This document shows positions 18,001 to 24,000 of a stretch of DNA of 64,000 bases, in pieces. The first letter of the stretch is position 1; every line of letters begins with the position of its first letter. A program made the position numbers. Location: the NCBI RefSeq assembly GCF_003790525.1, contig NZ_CP033635.1. One strand, given 5' to 3'. The stretch comes from Escherichia coli. Lineage in GTDB: Bacteria; Pseudomonadota; Gammaproteobacteria; Enterobacterales; Enterobacteriaceae.

Positions 18001-21000
18001 AAAAGGCACCAAAAGAAATATGACGAATATCCCGGGAGTGAGGGGATAATATACCTTTTAACAAAATCCGGGAACATGAAACGCCCGGAACGTTTCATGA
18101 GACATGCCCCGTGGGGAGCAGGGCATAACTGTGCGGAATAGCTTTCATTGTGATATCAATAATCACGGTATTCAAAATATTACGGGCCTGTGGGATCAGG
18201 TTGTTTTTTGTCTGATTCCAGAGGGAAGGGACGCTGTTTCGGTTCTCTGAACTTTAGTGATAATGAATTGAAAATCCTCATTTTTTGCTGCCATGCATAA
18301 TGTCTGTCCCATGAACAGGGGGGGCTCAATTCTTCATTCACCCATGCGTTAATATCTTGTTTCAGGTGTTGAAGCATATGGGGTGTTAATGCACTCATAA
18401 TAATATCCAGCGTTTTATGCGAGAGTTTACCGTAAGGGTCTGCAAGGATGCTGCTCGTTGCTTCGTTATTATCCACCATAAGTGGAAGTAGCGCTGATTT
18501 AACTTTTTCTGTCATTAGTTGCAAAAATCTACTGCGCAAATTTTCTTTACTGTTCATTTCTGAAGCCTCATCTGTTGTCGTTTGGTTTTCCTGAACGGGT
18601 ATGTTTATGAGACATGCTGGTACTGGATTATATACCTGATATATCCAGGGCTATAAACCTTTAGATCCTGATAAATATACATGAACGCAAAAATCAGATA
18701 CGGCCTGTCGGCTGCCGTTCTGGCGCTGATTGGTGCTGGCGCATCTGCTCCTCAGATACTTGATCAGTTTCTGGACGAAAAAGAGGGTAACCACACAACG
18801 GCATACCGCGATGGTTCTGGCATATGGACCATCTGCCGCGGTGCCACGGTGGTGGATGGAAAACACGTTTTTCCCGGAATGAAGCTGTCGAAGGAAAAAT
18901 GCGCTCAGGTTAATGCCATTGAGCGTGATAAGGCGCTGGCATGGGTGGAGCGCAATATTAAAGTTCCACTGACCGAAGCACAGAAAGCGGGTATTGCGTC
19001 ATTCTGTCCCTATAACATTGGCCCCGGTAAGTGTTTCCCGTCGACGTTTTATAAGCGGCTTAATGCCGGTGATCGAAAAGGCGCCTGCGAGGCGATTCGC
19101 TGGTGGATAAAGGATGGTGGGCGCGATTGCCGCATACGTTCAAATAACTGCTATGGACAGGTTATTCGTCGTGACCAGGAAAGCGCATTAGCCTGTTGGG
19201 GGATAGATCAGTGAGCAGAGTCGCCGCGATTATTTATGCTCTGGTTATCTGCATCATCGTCTGCCTGTCGTTGGCGGTCAATCATTACCGTGATAACGCC
19301 ATAGCCTACAAAGAACAGCGTGATAAAAAAGTCAGTGAACTGAAGCAGGCGACCGCCACCATTACTGACATGCAGCAGCGTCAGCGTGATGTTGCTGCGC
19401 TCGATGCAAAGTACTCGAGAGAATTAGCCAATGCGAAAGCTGAAAATGAAACTCTGCGCGCTGATGTTGCCGCTGGCCGTAAGCGCCTGCGGGTCAATGC
19501 CAGTTGCTCCGAAGCCGTGCGTGAAGCCACCGGACCCACCAGCGTGGATAATGCAACCAGCCCCCGACTGGCAGACACCGCTGAACGGGATTATTTCACC
19601 CTCAGAGAACGGTTGATGACGATGCAGAAGCAACTGGAAGGGGCACAGGAGTATATCCGCACTCAGTGCATTAAGTAGCCTTTTTGTTATCAGGAGAATG
19701 TATGAAGAAATTACTGGTAACCGCAAAGCTCTTTAATGGAAGAATCCCGTTCCGGATTTTACAGCGTGGTCGTGTTCTGGCTGAAGGTACATTCAGTGGT
19801 AAATGCACGGAATGTTATTCACGAATATATGAAGTGGATGCCACGGATGAAGATATAATCGTTGAGTGTAATGCCGGGATTGTATCGGCCACATTGCTTC
19901 ATGGGCGAATTGAGTTGTCGCTGGAGGATGCGGCAAATGAATTACCAACTGGCAAAACTTTATCGCGGTAAACATTTCGCAGGGTATGGGATTGCAGTTA
20001 ATGGTGAGTTACTGGAGGGGCAGCTTTCCGCCAGGACAGAGTCACGCGGAGGCGAGCCACCAACAGTCACTGTGACTTTCAGACTGACAGCAGAACATAT
20101 CGAGAATCAGCCCGTCATTCAACTGAACAGGGTGTGAGGTATTTATGCCATCACGAATCCCACGTGCCTGCCGTAAGCGTGGATGCGCAGGTACAATCAC
20201 AGACAGTTCTGGTTACTGCGATAAACATCGTGTGCGACCGTGGTTGCTCGGTATCTTTGTCTCTCTTGGTAACTTATTTGTTCGAACCGGTTTACAACTT
20301 ACAGGATATAAACATGCAAGAAGAAGCAAATAAAATTCTTGTTGATTTATTGACGAAGGCCAGCGATGGAATTGATTCCGCCATTGCATTCAGTCAGGCT
20401 CAGATTCCGGATGTTGTTCATCAGTTGCTGGTATGGAATATGGTTGATAGCCTGATTAAAACATTAATAGCCATTTCAACAATCCCTCTGGTTTTCTGGT
20501 TTATGAAGAAGCAGTGCCAAAGAGTTGAGACAGGTAAAATCGGTGATGAAGGATATTCATGGGAGAAGGGAAATCCCAAATACAGGCCGACAATGGTTTG
20601 GGATAGCAAAGGTGATATTAATCTTCTTATCGTGCCATTGGTTGGAGTTTTGACTATGTGGGGGATTTTTATTATTTGTGCAGTAACCAATATGACATGG
20701 TTAAAAATCTGGCTGGCACCTAAGTTATATCTAATCGAATACGCAGCATCACTAATTAAATAGTCCATTACAAAAGCCATTCGCTACAGAGTGGCTTTGA
20801 TAATGGCTTATACCCTGTACGGGATAACTTAATTGATATCCCTTTTAACGGATAAAGGTATTCAAGCCTGACACATCATTCGCTATATAGTCGCCGTATT
20901 CCCGTATGAACAGAAACCGTAGCCCGACGGGGAACTCCTTCTGCGCGAGTGTGCGGGAATAATCAAAAACGATGTACACCGGGTTTTTACCGCGTTAATG

Positions 21001-24000
21001 ATTCGCGGGTTTATCCCTCATAGTCGCCTGTCCGGTGCGATGGTGGAAGAAACCGGAAGCTGTATTACAGAAAGTGCTACTACTGTATCCTGATGCGATG
21101 TATGTAATGTGAGTCAGATAATGGCACAGGATGTGGTGATGTGGCAGTCTGGAACACAGGATATATTGTCAGAATAAGACCCGTAGGAATAAAAATGAAA
21201 AGACGCCTTTCACTACTTTTTCTGTTATCTGCCCTGGCAGTGGGATGCTCGCAGCAAAAAGCTGATGAGCCCCGGCAATTAGTGACGGTGTATCCACGAT
21301 ATCCGGAATATGCTGCAGCAAATTATATCAAGGGGCTGGTTGAGGTTAAGTTCGATATTGGTGCTGACGGGACTGTGACACGGATCGTTTTTCTCCGCTC
21401 AGAGCCTCATAATTTGTTTCGTGATGAAGTGGTGAAGGCCATGGCGAAATGGAGATTTGAAAAGAATAGTCCCCGTCAGGGAGTGAAGAGACAATTTATC
21501 TTTACGCCATCACGTCCCTGATGCTTCCAGGTAGAGAGGGGCTGGAAGCAGGAGAAAAATGAAAGAGCCAGCGGTTATATTTTTGTCATGGCTGACGAGA
21601 AATGATGGAAGAAGGCGTTGTATGCCACACAACGCCTCACTGTTCATTTCTTCTTTTTCTCTGGTGTAACCCGATGAATAAGAGTTGCACTGGTTTCCGG
21701 TGAGATGGCGATATGCTCGGGCAAAGTATGCTGGCAGTTTTCCAACTGGTCAAAAATATCTGCTCTCGTCTGTTGCAATGCCTGCAGCATGCGGCGGCAA
21801 TGCGCCTTTGCTTTTGCTAACCATCTTTCCTTCCTCTATCAGTCGCTGCGTGAACTCATCATGGAATACCAGGTAAATGCGGATGTTATCGGTTTTGGCT
21901 ACGCAGCATAGTACAAAACGGACAGGTGCATCCCGGAATGGGGGAGGCGTCACATGTCCCTGTGATGGTTGTTCCGGGTAATGCACTGTGTGGGGCATAA
22001 AAATGTCCGATAATTTTACTTTCTACCGCAGTTAGTTGATTCGTTGGTCCTGGTAGCACATTGGGCGAGGGTTTAAATGCCAGGCAACTGAAGGATGATG
22101 TTGCAAGGGAGATAGCGAGAATATTTCTGATTTTCATTTGATGATGCCTCTGTGTGAAATGACGGTAAACGACGCACTTGTGCCGGCACATAATAGCAAG
22201 CATCAGAATAGATCAGATTCGATTCTTGCTGTAAGTGATAATTATTCTCGTTTTTTCGGGTCCTTTCCGGCGATCCAACAGGTTACGGGGCGTCGACCTC
22301 GCGGGTTTTCGCTATTTATGAAAATTTTCCGGTTTAAGGCATTTCCGTTCTTCTTCGTCGTAACTTAATGTTTTTATTTAAAATACCCCCTGAAAAGAAA
22401 GGAAACGACAGGTGCTGAAAACGAGCTTTTGGGCCTCTGTCGTTTCCTTTCTCTGTTTTTGGCCGTGGAATGAACAATGGAAGTCAACAAAAAGCAGCTG
22501 GCTGACATTTTCGGTGCGAGTATCCGTACCATTCAGAACTGGCAGGAGCAGGGAATGCCCGTTCTGCGAGGCGGTGGGAAGGGTAATGAGGTGCTTTATG
22601 ACTCTGCCGCCGTCATAAAATGGTATGCCGAAAGGGATGCTGAAATTGAGAACGAAAAGCTGCGCCGGGAGGTTGAAGAACTGCGGCAGGCCAGCGAGAC
22701 AGATCTGCAGCCCGGTACGATTGATTACGAACGCTACCGTCTCACAAAAGCACAGGCAGATGCGCAGGAACTGAAAAATGCTCGTGAAGAAGGGCTGGTT
22801 CTTGAAACGGAATTATTTACCTACATTTTTCAGCGAGTTGCGCAGAATATATCCGGGATCCTTGTTCGTGTTCCGCAGACACTGCAGCGTAAATACCCTG
22901 ATATATCACCAGCACATCTTGATGCTGTGAAAACTGAAATCGCGAAAGCATCCGATGTGGCTTCTGAATCAGGTGAGAATGTGTGGAGGTGGATTGATGA
23001 TTTCAGACGAGCTGAGGGCGGCTAACTCTACAGGAGCGATAACGACTGGTCTCCTTGCGCTAAAAATTCCTGTACCCCTGACGACAGTTCAGTGGGCAGA
23101 TCAACATTATTACCTGCCGAAAGAGTCGTCTTACACACCAGGGCGGTGGGAAACATTGCCGTTTCAGGTTGCCATAATGAACAGTATGGGTAATGACCTG
23201 ATCCGCACTGTTAATCTGATTAAATCTGCCCGTGTTGGTTATACAAAAATGCTGTTGGGAGTGGAGGCTTATTTTATTGAGCATAAATCCCGCAACAGTC
23301 TGCTTTTTCAGCCCACGGACTCAGCTGCTGAAGATTTTATGAAATCTCATGTTGAGCCAACGATAAGGGATGTTCCTGCATTGCTGGAGCTGGCTCCATG
23401 GTTCGGAAGAAAACACCGCGATAATACGCTCACCCTGAAGCGTTTTTCCTCCGGTGTGGGGTTCTGGTGTCTGGGTGGTGCGGCAGCAAAAAACTACCGT
23501 GAAAAATCCGTGGATGTGGTCTGTTATGACGAGCTTTCCTCGTTCGAACCGGATGTTGAAAAAGAGGGCTCGCCAACCCTGCTGGGGGATAAGCGTATTG
23601 AGGGCTCTGTATGGCCAAAATCCATTCGCGGCTCGACGCCTAAAATCAAAGGCTCCTGCCAGATCGAAAAAGCCGCTAACGAGTCGGCACATTTCATGCG
23701 TTTTTATGTGCCCTGCCCGCACTGTGGGGAGGAGCAGTATCTGAAATTTGGCGATGAATCCACGCCTTTTGGCCTTAAATGGGAGAAGGAAAGCCCCGAA
23801 AGCGTTTTCTACCTTTGTGAGCATCATGGCTGTGTGATCCATCAGTCTGAGCTTGACCAGAGTAACGGGCGGTGGATCTGTGAAAACACGGGCATGTGGA
23901 CCCGTGACGGCCTGATGTTTTTCAGCGCCCGGGGTGATGAAATTCCGCCGCCGCGCTCCATCACTTTCCATATCTGGACGGCGTACAGTCCGTTCACCAC

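What the first reader, a model, noticed from the sequence alone, without database searches (positions are those of the whole stretch)
20145..22280. Moron island between lysis cassette and cos: lipoprotein built from a TonB C-terminal domain, plus membrane protein and HNH remnant
At the position lambda uses for bor, this prophage carries a truncated HNH-like ORF, a 149-aa two-TM membrane protein and a 108-aa lipoprotein (21195..21521) that is essentially a lipobox signal peptide fused to a TonB C-terminal-like domain. A membrane-tethered TonB C-terminal domain could compete with host TonB at TonB-box receptors such as FhuA or BtuB, which would block TonB-dependent phages or colicins, or alter iron uptake. 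The same prophage has a modified J tip and a Cor-like lipoprotein, so a receptor-blocking theme is plausible. I do not recall a characterised phage protein of this architecture.
Basis: partly seen in the sequence, partly recalled or inferred. Interest (0 to 1): 0.75.

Follow-up and report, generated by a model that had tools for sequence, protein, structure and literature searches.

The report
Prophage lipoprotein copying TonB's receptor-binding domain
This E. coli prophage carries a small, well-conserved outer-membrane lipoprotein that is a copy of the receptor-binding end of the host's TonB protein; it probably acts as a decoy that jams TonB-dependent entry of other phages and colicins, but nobody has tested this.

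Summary
Window 21195-21521 (+) encodes a 108-aa protein: a lipobox signal peptide (LAVGC|SQQ) plus a TonB C-terminal domain. Evidence: Pfam PF03544 E=3e-13, TIGR01352 above its cut-off, a gapless 80-residue alignment to E. coli TonB 151-230, and an AF2 model 0.6-1.0 A from TonB CTD structures. The HNH remnant and the 149-aa two-TM protein are also real.

The gene is not a new sighting. It is in phage 21, ev017, Perceval and CP-933N, labelled "TonB-like" or "TonB fragment". It occurs in 1224 of 5426 complete E. coli genomes, and a 70%-identical variant occurs in 415.

It is under purifying selection (dN/dS 0.12). Relatives occupy the same lysis-to-terminase slot in Salmonella, Klebsiella and Rahnella prophages with unrelated packaging modules. 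I found no functional study.

The decoy idea is plausible. Overproduced periplasmic TonB fragments are reported to inhibit TonB-dependent uptake. Lipoprotein forms of the TolA C-terminal domain also occur in a phage and beside a TonB_C lipoprotein in Klebsiella. Half of the relatives have Fur boxes upstream.

Expression, localisation and target are untested, and this copy has no Fur box.

The parts
19196..19678 (+). Rz i-spanin, with the embedded Rz1 o-spanin lipoprotein at 19431-19616. This is the end of the lysis cassette and the left border of the island.
   Evidence: ORFs. RefSeq names it 'lysis protein'. Rz1 has the lipobox LAVSAC|G and a proline-rich mature part. An intact spanin pair means the TonB_C lipoprotein is not needed as a spanin.
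19702..19971 (+). 89-aa hypothetical protein, probably a fragment of a larger phage protein.
   Evidence: Residues 1-78 match positions 100-182 of the 291-position PHROG 2571, unknown function (E=6e-24). RefSeq calls it hypothetical.
20145..20246 (+). N-terminal remnant of an HNH endonuclease gene (pseudogene). The open frame runs on to 20333.
   Evidence: PHROG 144 HNH endonuclease, E=1e-7, residues 1-33 only. RefSeq marks it a pseudogene, 'missing C-terminus'.
20314..20763 (+). 149-aa protein with two predicted transmembrane segments, function unknown.
   Evidence: Hydropathy segments at 43-64 and 100-130. PHROG 3054, E=7.5e-61. No Pfam, NCBIfam or PADLOC match. DNA homologues occur in Stx2a phages, Gally, HF4s and Salmonella phage Oslo.
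20765..21057 (.). Non-coding block shared with many lambdoid phages that lack the TonB_C gene. It starts with a hairpin (about 20773-20799) and is the left flank of the TonB_C cassette.
   Evidence: About 92% identical in mEp460 and Ayreon (feature under the match labelled 'terminator') and about 88% in 2B8. The alignment with phage 21 and JLK-2012 shows the hairpin kept with changed stem bases. Identity drops about 120 bp before the start codon.
21195..21521 (+). 108-aa lipoprotein. Signal peptide is residues 1-17, the lipid-modified Cys18 is at 21246-21248, an 8-9 residue tether follows, and the TonB C-terminal domain is residues 26-103 (21270-21503).
   Evidence: Pfam PF03544 E=3e-13. TIGR01352 above its cut-off. 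Gapless alignment to E. coli TonB 151-230. AF2 model and Foldseek search of PDB, rmsd 0.6-1.2 A. Lipobox. dN/dS 0.12 against the type B variant.
21889..22137 (-). 83-aa secreted or lipid-anchored Cys-rich protein (MKIRNILAISLATSSFSC-LA-FK... GCTCPFCTMLRS).
   Evidence: Homologues of 82-84 aa at 58-94% identity in E. coli, Citrobacter koseri and Salmonella. C18, C70, C72 and C75 are invariant. No Pfam or PHROG match. A near-identical genome has a 'DUF8602 domain-containing protein' among the features under the match, but which ORF carries that label was not checked.
22231..22255 (.). Fur-box-like palindrome (GTGATAATTATTCTC). It lies about 95-115 bp upstream of the minus-strand gene's start and just before cosQ.
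   Evidence: 14 of 19 matches to the Fur consensus, and 2 mismatches to TGATAATNATTATCA. Scores of 14 or more occur at only 4 positions in the 64-kb window. Function untested.
22258..22299 (+). cos region: GGGTCCT (cosQ-like) at 22258-22264 and the lambda-like cohesive end GGGCGTCGACCT at about 22288-22299. This is the right border of the island.
   Evidence: Sequence. cosQ is annotated at the equivalent place in phage 21. The cohesive-end assignment is by analogy with lambda, from my own knowledge.
22477..23025 (+). Nu1-type small terminase, the first gene of the head module.
   Evidence: ORF. RefSeq names it 'terminase small subunit'.

Best explanation
The 108-aa product is a lipoprotein. 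[quoted passage not shown] There a 9-residue tether holds a folded copy of the TonB C-terminal domain under the periplasmic openings of TonB-dependent transporters such as FhuA, FepA, Cir and BtuB.

The protein lacks TonB's membrane anchor and proline-rich rod, so it cannot transmit energy. It most likely acts as a dominant-negative decoy. Either it captures exposed Ton boxes of receptors or of incoming group B colicins by strand pairing, or it forms dead-end dimers with TonB. Either way it would lower TonB-dependent uptake, making the lysogen or infected cell less sensitive to TonB-dependent phages, colicins and microcins, at some cost in siderophore uptake.

Shown here: the domain identity and fold, the lipobox, purifying selection, the recurrent moron position, and wide distribution. 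Inferred: outer-membrane location, binding to Ton boxes or TonB, the protective phenotype, and when the gene is expressed. It lies on the late-operon strand and no promoter of its own was identified.
For: - Domain and fold. The model is 0.9 A from TonB as bound to BtuB (2gsk_B) and 1.2 A from TonB as bound to FhuA (2grx_C).
- Residue mapping (query n = TonB n+127): Y36-P37 correspond to Y163-P164. F53, F75, W86, F88 and F103 correspond to F180, F202, W213, Y215 and F230. Strand 94-103 corresponds to TonB beta3.
- The mature length of 91 residues corresponds to TonB 145-235, close to the 92-residue fragment of 1u07, which is the best structural match.
- The lipobox Cys is conserved in 15 of the 26 comparison rows of alignment A1. 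The residue after it is S, T or A, never D.
- dN/dS is 0.12 overall and 0.10 in the domain, at dS of about 1.4.
- The gene is full-length in 1220 of the 1224 E. coli genomes that have it. The type B variant is in 415 genomes.
- It lies on the same strand and in the same lysis-to-terminase slot with five different packaging modules: phage 21, JLK-2012/Stx1a phages, a Salmonella prophage, Klebsiella phage ST13-OXA48phi12.4 and a Rahnella prophage.
- Precedent: overexpressed periplasmic TonB domain inhibits TBDT iron import, and a Ton-box pentapeptide reduces colicin killing and phi80 infection (PMC9841981, citing PMID 11566987 and PMID 1729219).
- Analogy: T5 Llp is an outer-membrane inner-leaflet lipoprotein that inactivates FhuA from its periplasmic face, the face that TonB also occupies.
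- Parallel architecture for the other energy transducer: two lipobox-plus-TolA-C-terminal-domain proteins lie between Q and the lysis genes of phage mEp460_ev081. A TonB_C lipoprotein lies directly next to a TolA_C lipoprotein in the Klebsiella michiganensis/grimontii chromosome.
- Five of ten lineages have a Fur-consensus match of 14-15 out of 19 within 50 bp of the start codon, p<0.01 each. This ties the family to the iron/TBDT regulon.
- In an AF2 model of the mature domain fused through a flexible linker to FhuA residues 1-22, exactly the Ton box (DTITVT) becomes a beta strand with raised confidence.
Against: - There are no experimental data on this protein or any relative.
- This copy and phage 21's have no Fur box (10 of 19, which is background). 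The promoter and terminator scans were at chance level. So expression in the lysogen is unproven and may be late-lytic only.
- Jamming TonB would cost iron uptake.
- TonB positions implicated in Ton-box or receptor contact are not conserved: Q160 is Y33 here (L in type B) and R166 is Y39.
- In TonB the N-terminus of the domain points towards the inner membrane. A 9-residue tether to the outer membrane may not allow the same docking pose. I could not test this because no coordinates are available.
- The AF2 fusion result had no scrambled-peptide control, and AF2 was trained on 2grx and 2gsk.
- The gene does not track FhuA-type tail tips or cor.
- There was no hit in PADLOC.
Confidence: 0.45

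Rival explanations
1. It is a physiological modulator of TonB-dependent transport rather than a defence. Tethered at the outer membrane, it pre-binds or parks Ton boxes, or tunes which receptors get access to limiting TonB when the iron regulon is switched on. The phage copy would then be a borrowed host regulator that changes the lysogen's iron economy.
For: - Close relatives are ordinary chromosomal genes: Gibbsiella next to ahpCF, a metagenomic homologue, and Klebsiella michiganensis/grimontii between der and yfgJ on 1000 or more contigs.
- Fur-box matches sit just upstream in both chromosomal and prophage copies.
- Phage 21 also carries the TonB-independent iron/manganese transporter genes sitBCD. 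That suggests an iron theme in the same genome.
Against: - The protein has no energy-coupling parts, so any effect on transport should be inhibitory.
- The window copy has no Fur box.
- The repeated location in phage moron sites, and the parallel TolA_C lipoproteins, fit exclusion of Ton/Tol parasites better than nutrient tuning.
Confidence: 0.2
2. It is a lysis or envelope accessory protein made late in infection. An outer-membrane lipoprotein whose TonB-like domain binds peptidoglycan, Lpp/OmpA or TonB could adjust envelope integrity or lysis timing. This would fit the PHROG label 'Rz-like spanin'.
For: - PHROG 1267, labelled 'Rz-like spanin', matches over the full length (E=2e-40).
- The gene always lies just downstream of the spanin or endolysin genes, on the late strand.
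- No promoter of its own was detected.
Against: - The window and phage 21 already have a complete Rz/Rz1 pair.
- From general knowledge, o-spanins are short, proline-rich and unfolded. This protein is a globular TonB CTD.
- Chromosomal relatives have no lysis genes nearby.
- The lysis-to-terminase gap is lambda's bor site, a classic cargo position.
- The PHROG label is probably inherited from gene position.
Confidence: 0.1
3. It is a decaying fragment of a captured tonB gene with no function, as the old annotations 'partial tonB-like' and 'TonB fragment' imply.
For: - The database labels.
- Neighbouring DNA holds real remnants: the HNH pseudogene and the PHROG 2571 fragment.
Against: - dN/dS is 0.10-0.12 over a synonymous divergence of about 1.4.
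- It is full length in 1220 of 1224 genomes.
- It has an added, conserved lipobox signal peptide that tonB does not have.
- Homologues with the same architecture occur across Enterobacterales.
- Identity to E. coli TonB is only 40%, so it is not a recent truncation.
Confidence: 0.03

Closest known systems
E. coli TonB C-terminal domain (residues about 150-239; PDB 1u07, 1xx3, 2gsk chain B, 2grx chain C)
   Same: - Same Pfam and TIGR domain.
- 40% identity with no gaps over 80 residues.
- Same fold at 0.6-1.2 A.
- The YP motif and five aromatic residues are kept, and the beta3 edge strand is present.
   Different: - It has no N-terminal transmembrane anchor and no proline-rich rod. A lipobox signal peptide replaces them, so it is anchored at the opposite membrane and cannot be energised by ExbB/ExbD.
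- It scores far below the TonB equivalog cut-offs (66.8 against 265 bits).
- Q160 and R166 are replaced.
Engineered periplasmic TonB fragments (Howard, Herrmann, Stratilo and Braun 2001, PMID 11566987)
   Same: These are TonB C-terminal parts without the membrane anchor, exported to the periplasm. They are reported to inhibit TonB-dependent import (PMC9841981). From my memory of the paper, they also inhibit phi80 infection and colicin M killing. This is the mechanism proposed here.
   Different: - Those fragments were artificial, soluble, overproduced and at least 118 residues long. This is a natural 91-residue mature lipoprotein.
- Its activity has not been measured.
T5 Llp and the Cor proteins of phi80, HK022, N15 and T1 (superinfection exclusion lipoproteins acting on FhuA)
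   Same: They are small phage-encoded outer-membrane lipoproteins that act on a TonB-dependent receptor from its periplasmic face. Llp binds the plug surface that TonB also covers (PDB 8A60).
   Different: - The fold and sequence are unrelated. This protein has a TonB CTD fold and does not hit the Cor PHROG.
- Llp and Cor are specific for FhuA. A TonB mimic would in principle act on all Ton-box proteins.
- No exclusion phenotype has been shown for it.
Lambda Bor and other cargo genes between the lysis genes and cos
   Same: It sits in the same genomic slot and is also a small lipoprotein. It is variably present among related phages, and in phage 21 it lies directly beside bor.
   Different: - bor is on the opposite strand. 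From general knowledge it has its own promoter and is expressed in lysogens.
- This gene is on the late strand with no detected promoter, and its domain is unrelated.
Lipobox-plus-TolA-C-terminal-domain proteins (phage mEp460_ev081 at LR597641 40533-40961 and 41112-41507; Klebsiella michiganensis chromosomal gene next to P0230)
   Same: They have the same design: a lipoprotein signal peptide fused to only the C-terminal domain of a trans-envelope energy transducer. They are phage-borne or directly adjacent to a TonB_C lipoprotein.
   Different: - The domain is different (PF06519, TolA).
- In the phage they occupy a different cargo slot, between Q and the holin.
- They too appear to be uncharacterised.

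Membership tests
TonB_C domain family (Pfam PF03544 / TIGR01352) | Profile match above the curated threshold | tested here: met
   PF03544 E=3.2e-13 over residues 33-102. TIGR01352 scores 48.6 bits against a cut-off of 27.1.
TonB_C domain family (Pfam PF03544 / TIGR01352) | TonB CTD fold | tested here: met
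   The AF2 model has pLDDT about 97 over residues 31-103. Foldseek gives 1u07, 2gsk_B, 1xx3 and 2grx_C at rmsd 0.6-1.2 A, with target-normalised TM-scores of 0.85-0.93.
TonB_C domain family (Pfam PF03544 / TIGR01352) | Conserved YP motif and aromatic cluster (TonB Y163-P164, F180, F202, W213, Y215, F230) | tested here: met
   Y36-P37, F53, F75, W86, F88 and F103 correspond by the gapless alignment. P34, Y36, F75 and W86 are invariant in the family alignment. The list of important TonB residues is from my own knowledge.
Functional TonB energy transducer | N-terminal transmembrane anchor that couples to ExbB/ExbD | tested here: not met
   The N-terminus is a cleavable lipoprotein signal peptide ending in LAVGC. 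No other hydrophobic segment was found.
Functional TonB energy transducer | Proline-rich periplasm-spanning spacer and a full-length equivalog score | tested here: not met
   The protein is 108 aa in all, and only 8-9 residues separate Cys18 from the domain. The best TonB equivalog, NF008082, scores 66.8 bits against a cut-off of 265.
Bacterial lipoproteins sorted to the outer membrane | Lipobox with an invariant Cys after a hydrophobic signal region | tested here: met
   MKRRLSLLFLLSALAVGC fits the lipobox pattern. The Cys is conserved in type A, type B and the Salmonella, Klebsiella, Rahnella, Gibbsiella and Erwinia relatives.
Bacterial lipoproteins sorted to the outer membrane | No Asp at position +2 (the Lol avoidance signal) | tested here: met
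   Position +2 is Ser here, and S, T or A in all lipobox-bearing relatives. The sorting rule is established knowledge. Actual localisation was not tested.
Bacterial lipoproteins sorted to the outer membrane | Lipid modification and membrane fractionation | not testable with these tools
   This needs globomycin or palmitate labelling and membrane fractionation.
Cor/Llp superinfection-exclusion lipoproteins | Sequence or fold homology to Cor/Llp | tested here: not met
   The PHROG search hits 1267 and 34172, not the Cor family 1119. The fold is a TonB CTD.
Cor/Llp superinfection-exclusion lipoproteins | Blocks infection through a TonB-dependent receptor | not testable with these tools
   This needs plating assays with T1, phi80, T5 and others.
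Spanins (Rz1-type o-spanin), as the PHROG 1267 label suggests | Short proline-rich lipoprotein, paired with an i-spanin and required for lysis | tested here: not met
   The protein is a globular 91-residue domain. The phage has its own Rz plus an embedded Rz1. In phage 21 the characterised spanins are separate genes.
Moron (independently acquired phage cargo gene) | Present or absent among otherwise related phages, and flanked by different neighbours | tested here: met
   - Only 15 of 50,697 phage records carry it.
- Upstream neighbours differ: bor in phage 21, the HNH remnant plus TM protein here.
- The left flank block occurs in many phages without the gene.
Moron (independently acquired phage cargo gene) | Own promoter and terminator | tested here: inconclusive
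   The consensus scans were at chance level. Hairpins occur at about 20773-20799 and 21607-21640, but without canonical U-tracts.
Fur regulon | Fur box overlapping the promoter | tested here: not met
   The window and phage 21 score 10 of 19, which is background. Relatives L005, L007 and L008 score 15 of 19, and L014 and L017 score 14 of 19, all within 50 bp of the start (p<0.01). L005 has the exact 7-1-7 box TGATAATTATTATCA.

The most novel reading that the evidence does not exclude
Enterobacterial phages, and some chromosomes, carry a class of outer-membrane-anchored decoys of the two trans-envelope energy transducers. These are lipoprotein copies of the TonB C-terminal domain and of the TolA C-terminal domain.

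By occupying Ton boxes and TolA-binding epitopes, they would give broad, receptor-independent immunity against Ton- and Tol-dependent phages, colicins and microcins. In several lineages they are switched on by iron starvation through Fur, which is when the receptors are most abundant.

The window's gene, present in about a quarter of E. coli genomes, would be the commonest member.
Probability: 0.3. Interest if true: 0.75.

Novelty: new variant of a known kind. Interest (0 to 1): 0.6.

Why it matters
If the decoy model holds, about a quarter of complete E. coli genomes would carry a prophage gene that lowers sensitivity to TonB-dependent phages, group B colicins, microcins and possibly siderophore-conjugated antibiotics. 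Type A is in 1224 of 5426 genomes and type B is in 415. The carriers include phage 21-like prophages, Stx1a-converting phages and an O55:H7 phage.

That would bear on phage therapy host range, on bacteriocin competition in the gut, and on 'Trojan horse' drugs that enter through TonB-dependent receptors. It would also be a natural example of a virus copying the receptor-binding end of a host energy transducer. With the TolA-domain lipoproteins, it would define a general exclusion strategy that acts on the energy coupling step rather than on a single receptor.

If the model fails, the protein remains an abundant, conserved and unexplained prophage lipoprotein. The experiments needed are simple.

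Tried and rejected
- **Literature.** Seven of the nine full-text searches, for a characterised phage or prophage TonB-like or TolA-like lipoprotein, found nothing. The phage 21 genome announcement does not mention the gene.
- **svsR.** The svsR prophage sRNA paper is irrelevant, because svsR lies in cI.
- **Howard 2001.** The paper itself is not held. It is cited through PMC9841981 and PMC6042079.
- **Promoters and terminators.** The scan was at chance level.
- **Other libraries.** Rfam and PADLOC gave nothing.
- **Viral structures.** The BFVD fold search gave no hit below E=0.27.
- **Fur box for the window gene.** Rejected: 10 of 19, which is background.
- **Recent capture from the neighbouring host tonB.** In strain LR-31 tonB lies about 2.9 kb from the prophage's integrase gene. 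I rejected capture from it for three reasons. Identity to E. coli TonB is only 40%. The gene lies by cos rather than by att. And tonB is outside the window.
- **Spanin role from the PHROG label.** Rejected; see the membership test.
- **Link to Cor or FhuA-type tails.** The Cor-like lipoprotein has no tblastn match in the phage collection. Phage 21 has a lambda-like J and no annotated cor.
- **The 46-aa ORF annotated upstream in phage 21.** It is interrupted in the window after 17 codons, so it is probably not a gene.

Full report
**What is in the window**

The window is an E. coli lambdoid prophage inserted beside ompW. Window 20100-22303 is 100% identical to the chromosome of strain LR-31.

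Between the lysis cassette and cos the following features lie:
- The lysis cassette itself: lysozyme at 18681-19214, Rz at 19196-19678 and the embedded Rz1 at 19431-19616.
- An 89-aa fragment-like ORF at 19702-19971.
- The N-terminal remnant of an HNH endonuclease at 20145-20246. PHROG 144 matches residues 1-33 only, and RefSeq marks it a pseudogene.
- A 149-aa protein with two hydrophobic segments at 20314-20763 (PHROG 3054, unknown function).
- A 430-bp non-coding stretch.
- The 108-aa lipoprotein at 21195-21521.
- cos at about 22258-22299, followed by Nu1 at 22477.

**The TonB_C lipoprotein: observation confirmed**

- Residues 1-18 (MKRRLSLLFLLSALAVGC) fit the lipobox pattern, and Ser follows the Cys.
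- Residues 33-102 match Pfam TonB_C (E=3e-13). TIGR01352 scores 48.6 bits against a cut-off of 27.1.
- The best matches among solved structures are E. coli TonB itself. Residues 24-103 align to TonB 151-230 without a single gap.
- An AlphaFold2 model built on a 27-sequence family alignment has pLDDT of about 97 over residues 31-103.
- That model superposes on the 92-residue TonB fragment 1u07 at 0.6-1.0 A. It superposes on TonB bound to BtuB (2gsk_B) at 0.9 A and on TonB bound to FhuA (2grx_C) at 1.2 A, all at about 40% identity.
- With the offset n+127, the YP motif and the five aromatic residues of the TonB C-terminus are all retained. So is the last strand, which is the one that pairs with Ton boxes in those complexes; that role is from my own knowledge.
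- The protein is not a TonB. It has no membrane anchor and no proline-rich rod, and it scores far below every TonB equivalog cut-off.

**It is a real gene, and not a rare one**

The same gene, 96% identical in DNA, lies just before cos in classical phage 21. There it is annotated 'TonB C-terminal domain protein' and sits directly downstream of bor. It is also in ev017, Perceval and three ECOR-derived phages. Some of these phage records use the product name 'Partial tonB-like membrane protein encoded within prophage CP-933N'.

It occurs at 95% or higher identity in 1224 of 5426 complete E. coli genomes, and is full length in 1220 of them.

A second variant, type B, is 70% identical in protein. 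It is in Stx1a-converting phages, JLK-2012 and Lys8385Vzw, and in 415 genomes.

Between the two types dS is about 1.4 and dN/dS is 0.12, or 0.10 within the domain. The lipobox Cys is kept in both. The database labels 'fragment' and 'partial' are therefore misleading.

**The wider family**

A full HMMER scan of 1.8 billion representative proteins found many proteins of about 110 aa that align from the signal peptide onward at 33-45% identity. Most have a lipobox. Their contexts fall into two groups.

Prophage copies always lie on the late strand, between the lysis genes and the terminase, but with unrelated packaging modules:
- Salmonella: Rz-like, then TonB_C, a hypothetical gene, HNH and an HK97-type terminase.
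- Klebsiella phage ST13-OXA48phi12.4.
- A Rahnella prophage with a GpA-type terminase.
- JLK-2012.

Chromosomal copies occur in Gibbsiella, in a metagenomic lineage, and in Klebsiella michiganensis/grimontii.

All are named only 'TonB family protein'. PHROG 1267 labels the phage family 'Rz-like spanin'. I regard this as an error of position. This phage and phage 21 have complete Rz/Rz1 pairs, and the protein is a folded globular domain.

**Clues to function**

1. [quoted passage not shown] A Ton-box pentapeptide reduces colicin killing and phi80 infection (PMC9841981, citing Howard et al. 2001 and Tuckman and Osburne 1992). The mature phage protein spans the equivalent of TonB 145-235.
2. Ser at +2 predicts outer-membrane sorting. 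This would place the domain next to the periplasmic face of the receptors, which is where T5 Llp acts on FhuA.
3. In K. michiganensis the TonB_C lipoprotein gene is followed directly by a 130-aa lipoprotein carrying only the TolA C-terminal domain.
4. Phage mEp460_ev081 carries two lipobox-plus-TolA-C-terminal-domain genes between Q and the lysis genes. The same design has therefore been applied to both energy transducers. What they share is that phages and colicins exploit them for entry.
5. Five of ten lineages have a 14-15 of 19 match to the Fur consensus within 50 bp of the start codon. One is the exact 7-1-7 box TGATAATTATTATCA, 15 bp upstream in the Salmonella prophage. In the two E. coli reference sequences scanned (the 64-kb window and the 50-kb LR-31 stretch), scores of 14 or more occur in under 1% of 160-bp windows, and scores of 15 in none.
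6. In an AF2 model of the mature domain joined by a flexible linker to FhuA residues 1-22, exactly the Ton box DTITVT is predicted as a strand. Its confidence is about 70, against about 42 for the linker. This is weak evidence, because no control was run and AF2 was trained on the TonB-FhuA complex.

**What argues for caution**

- The window's own gene, and phage 21's, have no Fur box (10 of 19, which is background). In type A a 13-bp gap removes half of a palindrome that type B keeps.
- No promoter or terminator stands out. Expression may be only from the late operon.
- TonB residues Q160 and R166 are not conserved.
- The tether is short, and I could not check the geometry.
- Carriage does not follow FhuA-type tails. 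Phage 21 has a lambda-like J and no annotated cor.
- The Cor-like assignment of window 42642-42887 is weak.
- No paper in the library tests any member. PADLOC has no model for it.

**Verdict**

The sequence observation is right. The decoy mechanism is the best-supported reading, at a confidence of about 0.45, but it is unproven. Rivals are a physiological modulator of iron transport (0.2), a late envelope or lysis accessory (0.1) and a dead fragment (0.03, effectively excluded).

The gene has long been visible in databases. The novelty therefore lies in a possible new mechanism within a known kind, namely phage lipoproteins that disable TonB-dependent receptors from the periplasmic side. It also lies in the parallel with TolA-domain lipoproteins, which I did not find described.

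Noticed in passing
window 21889-22137 (-): A conserved 83-aa protein sits right next to cos: MKIRNILAISLATSSFSC-LA-FK..., C-terminal motif GTCDASPxPGC(T/S)CP(F/Y)CTMLRS. Homologues of 82-84 aa occur at 58-94% identity in E. coli, Citrobacter koseri and Salmonella, and four Cys are invariant. It could be cleaved by signal peptidase I after CLA, or lipid-modified at C18. It has no Pfam or PHROG family. It is not annotated in LR-31, where two tiny ORFs are called further upstream (21644-21790 and 21789-21911) and 21912-22491 has no annotated feature.
   Followed up: partly
window 22231-22255: A Fur-box-like palindrome (GTGATAATTATTCTC; 14 of 19 to the consensus) lies just upstream of cosQ, in the likely promoter region of the minus-strand 83-aa gene. 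It is one of only four such positions in the 64-kb window.
   Followed up: partly
L005 327-341; L007 about 290; L017 about 805; L008 about 5965; L014 about 2266: Relatives of the TonB_C lipoprotein have Fur-consensus matches of 14-15 out of 19, 11-45 bp upstream of their start codons. They include a Salmonella prophage, two metagenomic lineages, chromosomal Gibbsiella and one more. One match is an exact TGATAATTATTATCA. This suggests iron regulation of the family, though not of the window's copy.
   Followed up: yes
L025 (LR597641.1, phage mEp460_ev081) 3916-4344 and 4495-4890: Two tandem lipoproteins (lipoboxes IIGC|T and VAGC|T) consist only of a TolA C-terminal domain (PF06519, E=3e-23 and 1.5e-14). 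They lie between the Q antiterminator and the holin/lysin, which is the slot where Stx phages carry stx. I found no literature on them.
   Followed up: partly
L020 7001-7829 (Klebsiella michiganensis/grimontii chromosome, CP055412.1): A TonB_C lipoprotein (125 aa) and a TolA_C lipoprotein (130 aa, LASSC|A) lie side by side between der and a yfgJ-like gene. The first is seen on 1000 or more contigs. They look like a chromosomal pair of transducer C-terminal domain lipoproteins.
   Followed up: partly
L019 8468-11001 (phage 21, OL657228.1 21967-24502): Phage 21 has the same TonB_C gene, and it also carries the iron/manganese ABC transporter genes sitB, sitC and sitD in its b region. sitA was not checked because it lies outside the stretch I retrieved. 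This TonB-independent metal uptake system could offset a TonB block; that link is speculative.
   Followed up: no
L005 1476-1490 and L013 8561-8575: A near-perfect palindrome of the same type (TGAGAATAATTATCA and TGATAACCATTATCA) sits between the HNH gene and the small terminase gene in two unrelated HNH-type prophages. It may be a Fur box or a packaging or regulatory site.
   Followed up: no
PHROG 1267, as matched by window 21195-21518: The PHROG family that contains this protein is labelled 'Rz-like spanin', although its members are TonB C-terminal domain lipoproteins. It is probably a mislabel by position that will spread in phage annotations.
   Followed up: partly
window 37982-41698, 41698-42620, 42642-42887: The J-like tail tip protein ends in three copies of a coiled-coil repeat of about 55-57 aa ([20 protein letters not shown]...[12 protein letters not shown]) followed by a divergent tip. 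After it come an 86-aa ORF, a 220-aa ORF (PHROG 425, 'membrane associated protein') and an 81-aa lipoprotein that is only weakly Cor-like.
   Followed up: partly
window 42960-48849: The side tail fibre gene appears to be split. A 76-aa N-terminal piece (42960-43190) is followed by insertion-sequence genes (a 402-aa transposase at 43264-44472 and a three-gene IS66-like set at 44531-47155). A 543-aa ORF with long collagen-like GxxGxx repeats then follows (47218-48849).
   Followed up: no
window 50164-51597: A 477-aa protein has four or five tandem repeats of about 40 aa ([33 protein letters not shown]). In LR-31 the corresponding region is annotated as a 'YadA C-terminal domain-containing protein' pseudogene (incomplete, missing N-terminus). 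It is cargo at the prophage's right end.
   Followed up: no
L004 191-910 (strain LR-31), left of the window start: In the closest complete genome the host tonB gene lies about 2.9 kb from the prophage's integrase gene, in the order tonB-yciABC-ompW-int. This is the classical tonB-trp region. At 40% identity and located by cos, the phage gene is not a recent pick-up from it.
   Followed up: yes
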